IMG/VR virus record: IMGVR_UViG_3300045747_000694
Span: 42,165 to 106,164 of that record
Reading direction: 5' to 3' (one strand)
Origin: a virus
DNA length: 64,000 nt
Positions 14,081 to 14,926 of the stretch are shown one piece after another. Position 1 is the stretch's first letter; each line of letters opens with the position of its first letter. Both the position numbers and the translations under genes were made by a program. Under the pieces are notes generated by a model. That model was not told the DNA's origin. It saw only the letters and a list, made by a program, of their open reading frames with translations, and did no database searches.

Positions 14081-14926
14081 GTGAGCACTTACTACGCCCT
14101 CCCAGGAACGACCAAGCGCGTTTCGAACTACGCTCTGCTCTTCCTGTGCTTGTTGATGACTGCGCTCTTCGGGGCCGTTGACCGAATGCTTGATGTCGCC
14201 TTCCACTACAACTTCACACCCACGCCGCTCTACCTGATCCCCATCTCGATTGCGGCGTGGTTCGGTGGTCTTCCTCTCGGCCTACTCGTTTCGGTGCCAG
14301 CTCTGTTGCTCGAGTCTTGGCTCAGTCTCAAGTCGATCAAGATCCACCATCCCAACTCAGCCATCATCACCGAGGCTCTCTCGCTTCTCATCGCTGCGGA
14401 GATGCTTGGAGCGGTGTTGATCGTTTCGAGGCTGCGGAGCTACGTTCGCAAGTACCATCACTTCGCTTCGGTGGACGAGCTCACCGAATGCCTCAATGCC
14501 AGGGCCTTCAGGCACGAGTGCGAGATCGCCATCGAGCGCCTGAAGCGCTCGAAGGACGCCCACCTCTCGGTCATGTACATCGACGTGGACGACTTCAAGA
14601 TCGTGAACGACGAGAAGGGCCACAAGCATGGGGATGCGGCACTCAAGACGCTTGGGGAAGCGCTGCGTACCTCGGTGCGCTTGGTGGATGTGGTTGGTAG
14701 AGTGGGAGGAGATGAGTTCGCCGTTCTCCTCCCTGATGCCGAAGAGGCCGACCTCCCACTCATCATCGGTCGCATCAAGGCTGCACTCGTGCAGCTGGAG
14801 TTCCCCACCACCATCAGCATCGGCTACGTGACCTACCCGCCCGGTGTTCCGAAAGACCTCGACGCAGTCTTCCACTTGGCCGACCAGCGCATGTACGCGG
14901 CCAAGAAGGCACGCAAGCAGAGGTAA
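14081..14926 (+). CDS. membrane-anchored diguanylate cyclase (GGDEF domain with I-site)
   Basis: Hydrophobic N-terminal half consistent with several TM helices. IDVDDFKIVNDEKGHKHGD. RLVD-VVGRV-GGDEF (RxxD five residues before GGDEF). ADQRMYAAKK. Confidence 0.85.
   Translation: MSTYYALPGTTKRVSNYALLFLCLLMTALFGAVDRMLDVAFHYNFTPTPLYLIPISIAAWFGGLPLGLLVSVPALLLESWLSLKSIKIHHPNSAIITEALSLLIAAEMLGAVLIVSRLRSYVRKYHHFASVDELTECLNARAFRHECEIAIERLKRSKDAHLSVMYIDVDDFKIVNDEKGHKHGDAALKTLGEALRTSVRLVDVVGRVGGDEFAVLLPDAEEADLPLIIGRIKAALVQLEFPTTISIGYVTYPPGVPKDLDAVFHLADQRMYAAKKARKQR

What the first reader, a model, noticed from the sequence alone, without database searches (positions are those of the whole stretch)
14081..14926. 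Phage-encoded membrane diguanylate cyclase with intact active site and I-site
This is the only + strand gene inside a long - strand array, with its own bidirectional terminator. GGDEF, the upstream D-x-D-x-F-K-x-x-N-D and the RxxD inhibitory site (RLVD, five residues before GGDEF) are all intact, so it should make c-di-GMP under product feedback. The hydrophobic N-terminal half, consistent with several TM helices, suggests signal input. It might manipulate host motility, biofilm or development, or interfere with cyclic-nucleotide-based immunity.
Basis: partly seen in the sequence, partly recalled or inferred. Interest (0 to 1): 0.5.

Follow-up and report, generated by a model that had tools for sequence, protein, structure and literature searches.

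The report
Phage-encoded membrane diguanylate cyclase gene
A large uncultured phage carries a conserved gene for a small membrane-anchored enzyme that should make the bacterial "settle down" signal c-di-GMP; such genes are already annotated in other phages but apparently never tested, so this is a good example of a known kind, not a new kind.

Summary
The ORF at 14081-14926 (+, 281 aa, GTG start) is real and encodes four transmembrane helices followed by a full-length GGDEF domain (Pfam 122.5 bits). GGDEF, D-x-D-x-F-K-x-x-N-D, GHxxGD and the RxxD I-site five residues upstream are all present, and the key residues of each are invariant or >=90% conserved across 109 homologs. The AlphaFold model (pLDDT 92.5) matches solved cyclases.

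The window is a high-GC, roughly 150-200 kb uncultured phage. The gene is syntenic in four relatives (58-82% identity) and under purifying selection (dN/dS about 0.24). More distant ~200 kb viral contigs carry the same architecture.

Two context claims need trimming. Other + strand genes interrupt the leftward array from about 20.6 kb. The hairpin after the gene is conserved in position, but its U-tract is on the - strand.

A sensor role for the membrane half is not supported: the outward loops are only 13-14 residues. A link to cyclic-nucleotide immunity is not supported either: no PADLOC hit, and the phage carries a separate Acb2/Tad1-type sponge.

GGDEF genes occur in 52 deposited phage records and at least 555 IMG/VR contigs. 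Verdict: a new member of a known kind, with no functional study found in the library searched.

The parts
14081..14926 (+). Diguanylate cyclase gene (281 aa, GTG start, TAA stop at 14924-14926)
   Evidence: ORF list and sequence. Pfam GGDEF 122.5 bits and TIGR00254 117.9 bits. The N-terminal 25 residues are conserved in all five clade members, so the shorter database calls of 243-256 aa are start-codon miscalls.
14129..14431 (+). Membrane module, aa 17-117: four TM helices (about 19-33, 47-60, 67-80, 95/104-116), N-in and C-in, outward loops of 13-14 residues
   Evidence: Hydropathy of the protein. Hydropathy and charge profile of 109 homologs: basic N-terminus, K/R at position 64 in 64% of homologs, R119 in 89%, acidic outward loops. 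AlphaFold helices 16-41, 48-89 and 93-130. Weak DUF4118 match, E 0.015.
14429..14473 (+). Short basic stalk (aa 117-131, RLRSYVRKYHHFASV) that continues TM4 as one helix into the GGDEF domain
   Evidence: AlphaFold predicts a continuous helix 93-130 at pLDDT above 90. The sequence is read directly.
14465..14920 (+). GGDEF catalytic domain (aa 129-280)
   Evidence: Pfam PF00990 covers aa 129-280. Sequence matches to 40 solved GGDEF chains. Foldseek probability 1.0 to ImcA, WspR, PleD, DgcR and others.
14582..14611 (+). DVDDFKIVND (aa 168-177): metal- and phosphate-binding Asp/Lys and the guanine-contacting Asn
   Evidence: D168, D170 and N176 are invariant in 109 sequences; F172, K173 and D177 are at least 90% conserved.
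14678..14689 (+). Primary inhibitory site RLVD (aa 200-203), five residues before GGDEF
   Evidence: R200 and D203 are invariant in 109 sequences. The same RxxD-N5-GG[DE]EF spacing is present in eight of the nine viral-contig homologs examined.
14705..14719 (+). Active-site GGDEF (aa 209-213), preceded by R207
   Evidence: Read directly from the sequence. R207, G210, D211 and F213 are invariant; G209 and E212 are at least 90% conserved.
14927..14957 (.). GC-rich hairpin between the convergent cyclase gene and the leftward 250-aa gene (core stem 14932-14938 / 14946-14952)
   Evidence: Folding on both strands. A hairpin is present at the same position in L088, L168, L169 and L005 with different stems, and the U-rich tail is on the - strand. 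The consensus terminator scan did not call it.
13998..14080 (+). The only space left for the cyclase gene's own promoter and leader. It contains the conserved ATTCATGCTCCCCAC (14036-14050) and GAGG (14074-14077) three nt before the GTG
   Evidence: Alignment of five upstream regions. No sigma-70 consensus site was found. The GGCATAAG promoter-like motif of the leftward genes is absent on the + strand here.
13632..13997 (-). Conserved non-coding block next to the gene, probably a leftward leader or ncRNA and not a cyclase control element. Promoter-like GGCATAAG at 13990-13997 and 13667-13674; hairpins at 13895-13913 and 13914-13925
   Evidence: 82% and 86% identical to L088 and L168, against 65% and 74% at third codon positions of the cyclase gene. 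No frame stays open in all relatives. Compensatory changes occur in the 13895-13913 hairpin. The motif is enriched 10 against 0.47 expected. No Rfam family matches.

Best explanation
The gene encodes a catalytically competent, inner-membrane-anchored diguanylate cyclase. It is a long-standing accessory gene of a lineage of uncultured, high-GC phages of roughly 150-200 kb.

Shown here:
- It has a 4-TM N-terminal module (N-in, C-in). TM4 runs without a break into a 13-residue basic stalk and then into a complete GGDEF domain.
- All substrate-, metal- and product-binding motifs are intact.
- It sits among phage genes, is syntenic in four relatives, and both halves are under purifying selection.

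Inferred:
- The compact TM bundle and stalk hold two copies side by side in the membrane, so the two GGDEF domains can meet. GGDEF enzymes act only as dimers. The result would be largely constitutive conversion of 2 GTP to c-di-GMP once the protein is made.
- The RxxD site caps the output by product inhibition. That would also spare the GTP pool the phage needs for replication.
- The gene is a separate rightward transcription unit. It lacks the promoter-like motif of the surrounding leftward genes, and a conserved hairpin shields it from antisense read-through.

Most speculative step: the resulting rise in host c-di-GMP switches the infected cell to a sessile, appendage-off, matrix-on state. 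That could limit superinfection or keep the infected cell among susceptible neighbours. Lytic Pseudomonas phages reach the same second-messenger outcome indirectly, with YIP peptides that activate the host cyclase YfiN.

The confidence of 0.7 is for the whole chain up to 'makes c-di-GMP in the infected cell'. 'Phage-encoded, intact GGDEF enzyme' alone would be about 0.9. The specific benefit to the phage would be about 0.3.
For: Domain and motifs. Invariance of D168, D170, N176, G180, G184, R200, D203, R207, G210, D211, F213 and K275 in 109 homologs. Sequence matches to 40 solved cyclases. AlphaFold model with pLDDT 92.5 and pTM 0.80. Foldseek hits at probability 1.0 to ImcA, WspR, PleD, DgcR and others. 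The guanine-specifying Asp (D185, in GHxxGD) is retained.

Topology.

Phage origin: and the IMG/VR relative. Synteny in L002-L004/L088, L168, L169 and the 19.8-kb ENA contig.

Selection: dN 0.162, dS 0.686; omega 0.21 for the TM half and 0.25 for the GGDEF half.

Same architecture with intact motifs on other ~200-kb viral contigs that share further proteins with the window.

Separate transcription unit.

Precedents: TM-mediated dimerisation is required for activity in ImcA (PMC10904736). A lytic phage raises host c-di-GMP, reduces motility and increases biofilm (PMC8085984).
Against: There is no biochemical evidence. Activity, dimerisation and product inhibition are all inferred from sequence and a monomer model.

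No promoter could be identified, so the timing of expression is unknown.

The host is unknown. There is no near DNA match among 50,697 phage records, the best protein matches to cultured phages are at or below 38%, and cellular GGDEF relatives are spread over many phyla. It cannot therefore be said which c-di-GMP outputs exist in the host.

No c-di-GMP effector or phosphodiesterase (PilZ, EAL, HD-GYP) was found in the 64-kb window.

The conserved residues in the TM module (D34, Y51, P54, W60) hint that it may be regulated and not simply constitutive.

DSSP reads residues 48-89 of the model as one helix. The 4-TM call rests on the family profile.
Confidence: 0.7

Rival explanations
1. A signal-gated cyclase. 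The membrane module senses something, such as a membrane or periplasmic cue, envelope stress, cations at the conserved acidic outward face, or a host or phage partner protein. It then switches the GGDEF dimer on or off through the TM4-stalk helix.
For: The TM half is under purifying selection as strong as that on the catalytic half (omega 0.21). It carries conserved non-hydrophobic positions: P54 is invariant, Y51 and W60 are at least 90% conserved, and D34 is 93% and E78 is 80% acidic in 109 homologs. It resembles the DUF4118 membrane module of KdpD-type sensor kinases, weakly in the window protein and above the precomputed Pfam hit threshold in several homologs. ImcA is regulated through TM-TM contact with IsmP (PMC10904736).
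Against: The outward loops are only about 13-14 residues and there is no recognisable ligand-binding domain. A single-sequence search with the N-terminal 128 aa against 1.84 billion representatives found only 9 proteins, 7 of them 256-308 aa, so the module is not demonstrably shared with other signalling outputs. No conserved partner gene sits next to it: the downstream 250-aa lipoprotein gene is absent from L088.
Confidence: 0.25
2. c-di-GMP serves as the phage's own internal signal. The cyclase feeds a phage-encoded receptor, for example to time lysis or late gene expression or to sense the state of the infected cell, and does not reprogram host behaviour.
For: The gene is retained over deep divergence in a phage lineage and in related ~200-kb phages. 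The phage carries other signalling parts, namely a stand-alone receiver domain at 59300-59704 and a hemerythrin at 36669-37112. Most neighbouring ORFs have no known function.
Against: No PilZ, MshEN-like, EAL or HD-GYP domain was detected among 75 window ORFs at E <= 1e-3. Only 64 kb of a genome of at least 150 kb was examined. No co-conserved neighbour was identified.
Confidence: 0.1
3. A counter-defence device. The cyclase interferes with cyclic-nucleotide-based immunity (CBASS, STING, or guard systems that monitor nucleotide pools) by flooding the cell with c-di-GMP.
For: The phage is evidently exposed to such immunity, because it encodes an Acb2/Tad1-type sponge at 42552-42818 (PF24729, 41.5 bits). 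Guard systems that watch decoy cyclic nucleotides exist (Panoptes, PMC12657218). Some CBASS systems use c-di-GMP (PMC10680739).
Against: There is no PADLOC hit for the cyclase or its neighbours. It is a canonical GGDEF enzyme, not an mCpol or CD-NTase. In c-di-GMP/STING systems, extra c-di-GMP would activate the effector and not block it (PMC10680739). The known decoy signal is 2',3'-c-di-AMP (my recollection of PMC12657218; the passages read do not state it), and a GGDEF enzyme is not expected to make that. The cyclase and the sponge are 28 kb apart.
Confidence: 0.05
4. Not a c-di-GMP synthase. It could be a degenerate GGDEF acting as a receptor or scaffold, or a Hypr-type GGDEF making 3',3'-cGAMP.
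For: GGDEF domains with other roles are common in bacteria. The weaker NCBIfam matches include such proteins, for example LapD and CsrD.
Against: Every catalytic position is canonical and conserved. The base-specifying Asp (D185) is kept. Hypr enzymes carry Ser or Thr there (established knowledge, Hallberg et al. 2016, recalled and not re-read). The best NCBIfam and PDB matches are active cyclases.
Confidence: 0.05
5. Not really a phage gene. It would be host DNA at a prophage edge, a chimeric assembly, or a recent passenger.
For: Many IMG/VR GGDEF hits lie at contig ends of predicted prophages and could be host flank. The gene's GC3 (0.78) is toward the low end for this genome.
Against: Phage genes lie on both sides. 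The DNA is identical in an independent assembly (L001). The position is the same in four diverged relatives from different samples and assemblers. The nearest homolog outside the clade is only 36% identical and is itself in a phage-like context, so this is not a recent capture.
Confidence: 0.03

Closest known systems
Small bacterial 4TM(DUF4118-like)-GGDEF proteins of about 270-300 aa (uncharacterised; for example from Malonomonas rubra DSM 5091 and a Gemmatimonadota MAG)
   Same: Same length and architecture. They share the conserved D34/YLIPI/AAW membrane motifs, the RxxD I-site and GGDEF, and align end to end.
   Different: They are only 28-40% identical to the window protein. The phage clade forms its own branch, with L090's viral copy as sister in an NJ tree that has no bootstrap support. 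No member appears to have been studied, so the family name says nothing about function.
ImcA of Pseudomonas aeruginosa (PDB 8wcn), a membrane diguanylate cyclase
   Same: It is the best structural match over both the membrane and catalytic parts (Foldseek E 4e-14, 284 aligned columns). Its TM domain forms the homodimer interface, is required for activity, and is the contact site for a regulator (PMC10904736). This is the working model for the phage protein.
   Different: ImcA has six TM helices, is 461 aa long and has GGEEF. The phage protein has four TM helices in 281 aa. Identity is 27-30%. The two are analogues, not members of one family.
GGDEF genes already annotated in phage genomes (Bacillus phage G gp350, Bacillus phage SP-15, Acetobacter phage phiAX1, Bordetella phage CN1, Klebsiella phage ST16-OXA48phi5.4, Escherichia phage vB_EcoS-683R6, and a Mu-like virus from the Cariaco Basin)
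   Same: Phage-borne GGDEF domain proteins. There are 52 of 50,697 deposited phage records with a match, 8 BFVD models, and at least 555 IMG/VR contigs. They have been discussed as viral auxiliary genes (PMC7785012; PMC11295528).
   Different: All are at or below 40% identity and match mostly over the GGDEF domain only. None is from this phage lineage. No functional study of any phage-encoded cyclase was found in the library.
YIP peptides of PB1-like Pseudomonas phages
   Same: A phage-encoded factor that raises host c-di-GMP, lowers motility and increases biofilm. The authors discuss superinfection exclusion and host take-over as benefits (PMC8085984).
   Different: YIP is a small peptide that activates the host cyclase YfiN. 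Here the phage brings its own enzyme, which makes it independent of the host's cyclase repertoire.
Cyclases on other mobile elements (DgcK/DgcL of SXT/R391 ICEs; plasmid-borne cyclases)
   Same: Mobile-element-encoded GGDEF enzymes thought to alter host behaviour to the element's benefit. This rests on my recollection of Bordeleau et al. 2010 and on Madsen et al. 2018, which is cited in PMC7785012. Neither paper could be read here.
   Different: Those are conjugative elements in a long-term association with the host. This is a large, apparently virulent-type phage with no integrase in the 64 kb examined.

Membership tests
GGDEF diguanylate cyclase (PF00990 / TIGR00254), catalytically competent | Full-length domain match above the curated cut-off | tested here: met
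   PF00990 at 122.5 bits against a cut-off of 23.8, profile positions 1-160 of 161. TIGR00254 at 117.9 bits against 37.4.
GGDEF diguanylate cyclase (PF00990 / TIGR00254), catalytically competent | Active-site GG[D/E]EF hairpin with the preceding Arg | tested here: met
   R207-V-G209-G-D-E-F213 is read from the sequence. R207, G210, D211 and F213 are invariant in 109 homologs.
GGDEF diguanylate cyclase (PF00990 / TIGR00254), catalytically competent | Metal- and phosphate-binding D-x-D-x-F-K, and guanine-binding Asn and Asp (N-D ... GHxxGD) | tested here: met
   D168, D170, K173, N176, D177, G180-H-K-H-G-D185. The correspondence to PleD D327, N335 and D344 is from memory and was not aligned here.
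GGDEF diguanylate cyclase (PF00990 / TIGR00254), catalytically competent | GGDEF fold | tested here: met
   AlphaFold pLDDT is 92.5. Foldseek rmsd is 1.8-2.8 A to isolated GGDEF domains such as 4wxw, 5euh and 4urs.
GGDEF diguanylate cyclase (PF00990 / TIGR00254), catalytically competent | Homodimerisation and measured synthesis of c-di-GMP from GTP | not testable with these tools
   Only a monomer model could be made. This needs an enzyme assay or LC-MS.
I-site (RxxD) product-inhibited cyclases | RxxD exactly five residues upstream of GG[D/E]EF | tested here: met
   R200-L-V-D203, then VVGRV, then GGDEF. R200 and D203 are invariant in 109 homologs.
I-site (RxxD) product-inhibited cyclases | Secondary Arg site that cross-links the c-di-GMP dimer, and measured non-competitive inhibition | not tested
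   No residue-level superposition on PleD or WspR was possible. Inhibition needs kinetics with R200A and D203A controls.
DUF4118 (PF13493) membrane module of KdpD-type sensors | Pfam match above the gathering score | tested here: not met
   15.5 bits against a cut-off of 28.4, E 0.015, aa 21-122. Several homologs carry a precomputed PF13493 hit, so the module is DUF4118-like but the window protein itself does not qualify.
DUF4118 (PF13493) membrane module of KdpD-type sensors | Four closely packed TM helices with both ends cytoplasmic | tested here: met
   The family profile shows four hydrophobic peaks, basic N-terminus, basic 61-66 turn and basic post-TM4 segment, and acidic outward loops.
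Hypr-GGDEF (3',3'-cGAMP synthases) | Ser or Thr in place of the guanine-specifying Asp of GHxxGD | tested here: not met
   D185 is present and at least 90% conserved. The defining feature itself is recalled from Hallberg et al. 2016.
ImcA-type six-TM membrane cyclases | Six-helix TM domain forming the dimer interface | tested here: not met
   There are four TM segments in 117 residues. ImcA is the best structural hit, but at TM-score 0.51 and rmsd 9.5 A over the full length.
Phage accessory (moron / auxiliary) gene | Lies inside a phage genome and is retained at the same place in related phages | tested here: met
   Structural genes lie to the left and an array of small ORFs to the right. The gene is syntenic in four relatives.
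Phage accessory (moron / auxiliary) gene | Own promoter and terminator, independent of flanking operons | tested here: inconclusive
   It has the opposite orientation, lacks the GGCATAAG motif of the flanking leftward units, and has a conserved 3' hairpin. No promoter was identified, and the hairpin lacks a + strand U-tract.
Defence or counter-defence nucleotide cyclases (mCpol/Panoptes, CBASS CD-NTase) | Match to a defence-system model, or an effector or sensor partner next to it | tested here: not met
   No PADLOC family at E <= 0.01 for the cyclase or seven neighbouring proteins, apart from one spurious 13-bit hit.

The most novel reading that the evidence does not exclude
A whole lineage of ~150-210 kb uncultured phages has kept its own minimal, self-dimerising c-di-GMP synthase for a long time. 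The gene is placed in the RNA-gene region of the genome: next to the tmRNA here, and inside tRNA arrays in distant relatives. It is transcribed against the surrounding units. If it is expressed early, it would be a dedicated second-messenger take-over device. The phage would switch the infected cell's lifestyle programme directly (appendages off, matrix on, cell-cycle effects), or use c-di-GMP as a phage-read signal. That would make c-di-GMP a virus-controlled messenger and not only a bacterial one.
Probability: 0.2. Interest if true: 0.65.

Novelty: new member of a known kind. Interest (0 to 1): 0.35.

Why it matters
Phages are known to tamper with bacterial signalling, and one lytic phage family is known to raise host c-di-GMP indirectly. 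Phage genomes have been annotated with GGDEF genes for years, yet I found no paper that tests one. This gene is a clean candidate for such a test. It is short (281 aa), every catalytic and feedback residue is intact, it is under purifying selection in a phage lineage, and it has no extra sensor domain to complicate expression.

If it is active during infection, it would show that large phages carry their own switch for the host's motile-sessile decision. That has consequences for superinfection, for biofilm ecology, and for how auxiliary genes in viromes are interpreted. If it is inactive or silent, that would caution against reading viral GGDEF annotations as function.

Tried and rejected
- Megablast of 10 kb around the gene against 50,697 phage records gave no match.
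- I looked for a riboswitch or known RNA upstream (c-di-GMP-I/II and others). The Rfam E-value scan of 13550-14150 gave only noise, and the gathering scan of the window gave only the tmRNA.
- The sigma-70 promoter scan of 13400-15200 found none, and the terminator scan did not call the post-gene hairpin.
- Host inference failed by several routes. Cluster look-up returned no organism names. The nearest cultured phages by the AAA ATPase are at or below 38% identical and infect unrelated hosts. The vault-like protein matches only three uncultured huge-phage records.
- phmmer with the N-terminal 128 aa against 1.84 billion representatives gave 9 hits, too few to learn what else the module is fused to.
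- PADLOC gave nothing for the cyclase or its neighbours.
- I considered that the conserved upstream block is a cyclase leader or riboswitch and rejected it. Two leftward promoter-like motifs (13990, 13667) bracket it, so a - strand leader or ncRNA is more likely.
- I considered that the block hides a small protein gene and rejected it, because no frame is open in all relatives.
- One literature phrase hit for 'phage-encoded diguanylate cyclase' turned out to mean a peptide that binds a host cyclase.
- Madsen et al. 2018 could not be read.
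Full report
**1. The observation**

Its codon-position composition is that of a real gene in this genome, with GC1/2/3 of 0.61/0.39/0.78.

All the cited motifs can be read directly from the sequence. DVDDFKIVND is at aa 168-177. RLVD is at aa 200-203, followed by VVGRV and then GGDEF at aa 209-213. Pfam GGDEF matches end to end (E 1.8e-35, 122.5 bits, profile positions 1-160 of 161), and so does TIGR00254.

The long GTG-started form is the correct one. The first 25 residues (consensus xxxYxxPGTxRRxxxxALLLLCWL) are conserved in all five members of the clade at the DNA level. 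The database proteins of 243-256 aa are start-codon miscalls.

**2. Is it a phage?**

Yes. The window encodes:
- a 2,026-aa collagen-repeat tail fibre, a head-decoration-like protein, a radical-SAM enzyme, an SLT transglycosylase, HNH endonucleases, a methyltransferase and a class II-type RNR;
- a GH108/PG_binding_3 endolysin;
- dozens of small ORFs with no family.

No integrase was detected in these 64 kb. There is no near DNA match among deposited phages. The nearest cultured phages are at or below 38% identical in a conserved ATPase. An exact copy of the cyclase gene lies on an independent 14.7-kb assembly (L001). A database protein that is 100% identical but called from a later start (P0001, 256 aa) lies on a 153-kb JGI contig.

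**3. Conservation**

Four relatives have the gene at 82, 80, 63 and 58% protein identity. One of them is on a 198-kb contig that IMG/VR lists as viral.

The two relatives on long contigs show the same order: tail fibre, a few + strand genes, SLT (-), small leftward genes, then the cyclase (+), then an array of small leftward genes. The two on short contigs show the cyclase followed by leftward genes.

Against the 198-kb relative, dN is 0.162 and dS is 0.686. Omega is about 0.24 overall, 0.21 in the membrane half and 0.25 in the catalytic half. Both halves are therefore maintained by selection.

Outside the clade, identity drops to 36% or less. The next tier is a large set of roughly 270-300-aa proteins with the same architecture. 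At least some are cellular: one is from Malonomonas rubra DSM 5091, one from a Gemmatimonadota MAG, and one lies on a 655-kb contig. Others are viral:
- P0006 lies in a phage-like context.
- IMG/VR contigs of 199, 196 and 209 kb carry full-length homologs with intact RxxD-N5-GGDEF.
- Two of those contigs share further proteins with the window at 47-52% identity.
- One of their cyclases (L090's) is sister to the window clade in an NJ tree, though without bootstrap support.

The gene is thus an old resident of this group of large phages and not a recent capture.

**4. Anatomy**

*Catalytic half.* Across 109 homologs, D168, D170, N176, G180, G184, R200, D203, R207, G210, D211, F213 and K275 are invariant. 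F172, K173, D177, H181, D185, G209 and E212 are at least 90% conserved. The guanine-specifying Asp of GHxxGD (D185) is kept, which argues against a Hypr-type cGAMP synthase.

The sequence matches 40 solved GGDEF chains. The AlphaFold model is confident (pLDDT 92.5, pTM 0.80) and superposes on isolated GGDEF domains at about 2-3 A.

*Membrane half.* The window protein on its own shows three broad hydrophobic regions, and DSSP reads residues 48-89 as one helix. The family-wide profile resolves four peaks at 19-33, 47-60, 67-80 and 104-116. It also gives a clear charge pattern:
- The N-terminus is basic.
- The 61-66 turn is basic (K/R at position 64 in 64% of homologs).
- The post-TM4 segment is basic (R119 in 89% of homologs).
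- Both outward loops are acidic and only about 13-14 residues long.

That pattern gives a 4-TM protein with N-in and C-in topology, which places the GGDEF domain in the cytoplasm as it must be.

TM4 continues as a single helix (93-130) through a 13-residue basic stalk into the DxLT start of the GGDEF domain. The only family hint for the membrane module is DUF4118, and it is below threshold. A search with the N-terminal 128 aa alone found just nine proteins, seven of them 256-308 aa long.

**5. Surroundings**

The gene is the only rightward gene between 11126 and 19730. Other rightward genes occur at 20589-21204 and about 23186-23437.

*The hairpin.* The 48-bp spacer after the stop codon holds a GC-rich hairpin (14927-14957). 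On the + strand it is a 7-bp stem with no U-tract (z -0.95). On the - strand it is a 12-bp stem followed by UCUUCUUA (z -2.95). The consensus terminator scan misses it. All four relatives have a hairpin at the same place with different stem sequences, and the U-rich tail is again on the - strand. I read this as a conserved terminator for the incoming leftward transcripts. It insulates the cyclase gene from antisense read-through and may also serve as a U-less 3' end for the cyclase mRNA.

*The upstream region.* The 449-bp intergenic region is unusually conserved. It is 82% and 86% identical to the two nearest relatives, against 65% and 74% at third codon positions of the cyclase gene. It has invariant runs of 15-19 nt, no frame that stays open in all relatives, and a hairpin at 13895-13913 kept through compensatory changes in two lineages. 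No Rfam family matches it.

It is probably not a cyclase control element. The octamer GGCATAAG (read on the - strand) occurs ten times in the window against 0.47 expected. Nine copies are in the leftward orientation, and most of those lie 16-54 nt upstream of leftward gene starts, preceded by a GCAAg-like box. Two such sites, at 13990 and 13667, bracket the conserved block. So it is most simply a leftward leader or ncRNA.

That leaves only 13998-14080 for the cyclase promoter. This stretch holds a conserved ATTCATGCTCCCCAC but nothing resembling sigma-70 consensus. The cyclase is therefore a separate transcription unit of a different promoter class, and its timing is unknown.

**6. Mechanism**

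*Shown:* a complete, conserved, selected GGDEF enzyme with an I-site, tethered to the membrane by a compact 4-TM bundle, encoded by a phage.

*Inferred:* the TM bundle and stalk dimerise the protein so that the two GGDEF domains can condense two GTP molecules. In ImcA, the best full-length structural match, the TM domain is the homodimer interface and is required for activity (PMC10904736). With no sensor domain, activity is probably set mainly by expression level and capped by RxxD product inhibition.

*Speculative:* the benefit to the phage. Lytic PB1-like Pseudomonas phages raise host c-di-GMP with YIP peptides that activate YfiN, which lowers motility and raises biofilm. Those authors discuss superinfection exclusion, retention in dense populations, and cell-cycle effects as possible benefits (PMC8085984). 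The same options apply here. The host is unknown, so none can be preferred. The GH108 endolysin and the lipobox-bearing SLT and 250-aa proteins suggest a diderm host.

**7. Rivals**

*Gated sensor.* This cannot be excluded, because the TM half is conserved and carries invariant polar and aromatic positions. However, there is no room for a periplasmic domain and no conserved partner gene.

*Immune interference.* This is not supported:
- There is no PADLOC hit.
- The enzyme is a canonical GGDEF.
- The phage carries a separate Acb2/Tad1-type sponge at 42552-42818.
- c-di-GMP is reported to be neither cleaved by Acb1 nor sequestered by Acb2 (PMC10680739). So the two phage functions would not be expected to interfere, assuming the window's sponge behaves like the characterised Acb2, and nothing links them either.

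*Phage-internal c-di-GMP circuit.* No PilZ, EAL or HD-GYP protein was found in the window. More than half of the genome was not examined.

**8. Comparison with what is known, and novelty**

GGDEF genes are already annotated in phages. There are 52 of 50,697 deposited records with a match, including Bacillus phages G and SP-15, Acetobacter phage phiAX1, and Klebsiella and Escherichia phages. BFVD holds eight models, including membrane-type ones. IMG/VR holds at least 555 contigs. They have been discussed as viral auxiliary genes (PMC7785012, PMC11295528).

Three literature searches found no functional study of a phage-encoded cyclase.

This gene is therefore a new member of a known kind: a distinct, conserved phage branch of a widespread small 4TM-GGDEF family. 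It is a good experimental candidate, but a specialist would not find it surprising. Interest: 0.35.

Noticed in passing
window 11774-12142 (-); L088 7579-7976 (-): The phage encodes a full-length tmRNA (Rfam 105 bits; ARAGORN tag peptide ANEPMFAQQLAAA), 1.9 kb left of the cyclase gene. It is conserved at the syntenic position in the 198-kb relative (100 bits), where ARAGORN missed it. There is no tRNA anywhere in the 64-kb window.
   Followed up: partly
window 13632-13997 (probably - strand): This is a constrained non-coding block. It is as conserved as first codon positions of the neighbouring gene, has invariant runs of 15-19 nt, has a hairpin (13895-13913) with compensatory changes in two lineages, and has no frame open in all relatives. 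No Rfam family matches. It is bracketed by two leftward promoter-like sites, so it is a candidate novel phage ncRNA or long leader.
   Followed up: partly
window 13667, 13990, 15780, 17076, 18203, 19779, 36668, 58651, 62816 (- strand sense); 16836 (+ strand sense): The octamer GGCATAAG occurs 10 times against 0.47 expected. Most copies lie 16-54 nt upstream of leftward gene starts and are preceded by a GCAAg-like box about 15 nt away. It is a likely promoter element for one class of leftward, probably early, transcription units. It is absent in front of the cyclase gene.
   Followed up: partly
L089 10007-10885; L090 9941-10801; also L151, L152/L153, L125: In two distantly related ~200-kb viral contigs, the homologous TM-GGDEF gene sits inside a tRNA array (29 and 41 tRNAs within 20 kb), on the opposite strand and flanked immediately by tRNAs. 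Unrelated GGDEF genes in a 479-kb contig and others also lie inside or next to tRNA arrays. GGDEF genes in large phages seem to gather in the RNA-gene region.
   Followed up: partly
window 42552-42818 (+): An 88-aa protein has an Acb2/Tad1 hairpin domain (PF24729, 41.5 bits against a cut-off of 27). It is a predicted cyclic-nucleotide sponge against CBASS- or Thoeris-type immunity.
   Followed up: partly
window 59300-59704 (-): A stand-alone CheY-like receiver domain protein (PF00072, 81.6 bits) has the acidic pocket, the phospho-acceptor Asp and the conserved Lys all present. It lies directly downstream of the RNR gene (59705-61864). It could act as a phage-encoded phosphate sink or a decoy for host two-component signalling.
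   Followed up: no
window 30687-33332 (-): An 881-aa ORF has no PHROG match. It is the likely source of the bulk-scan hits to major-vault-protein domains (MVP_shoulder E 2.5e-27, Vault_3), but I did not assign those hits to a specific ORF. Among deposited phages it matches only three uncultured huge-phage records of 462-735 kb (LR756500, LR756501, LR756503) at 39-41% identity. L089 has a homolog at 52%.
   Followed up: partly
window 36669-37112 (-); 50511-52581 (-); other ORFs in 26-62 kb: Other unusual cargo includes a hemerythrin (147 aa) and a DUF1257 protein (50511-50939) next to an AAA ATPase gene (50986-52581, phrog_8638). The bulk Pfam scan also hit Cpn10/GroES, DprA-like, YpsA-SLOG, PNKP phosphatase, DUF2997, DUF3150 and an NDUS4-like domain. 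Not all of these were assigned to specific ORFs.
   Followed up: no
window 1625-8826 (+): A 2,026-aa tail fibre has collagen-like repeats and a C-terminal S74-type domain. It is followed immediately, with a 4-nt overlap, by a radical-SAM enzyme gene (7702-8826). The pairing is conserved in the 198-kb relative. It could reflect modification of the fibre or of a receptor-related molecule.
   Followed up: no
P0001 (256 aa), P0003 (243 aa), P0004 (255 aa): Public gene calls for this cyclase clade start at internal codons and cut off TM1. The conserved N-terminus shows that the true products are about 281 aa, mostly with GTG starts. Anyone expressing the database versions would lose a membrane helix.
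   Followed up: yes
L092 18592-18929 (+): A 209-kb viral contig that carries a homologous TM-GGDEF gene also has a match to the cspA thermoregulator RNA (Rfam RF01766, 84 bits against a gathering score of 78). This implies a phage-borne cold-shock gene with its 5' UTR thermosensor.
   Followed up: no
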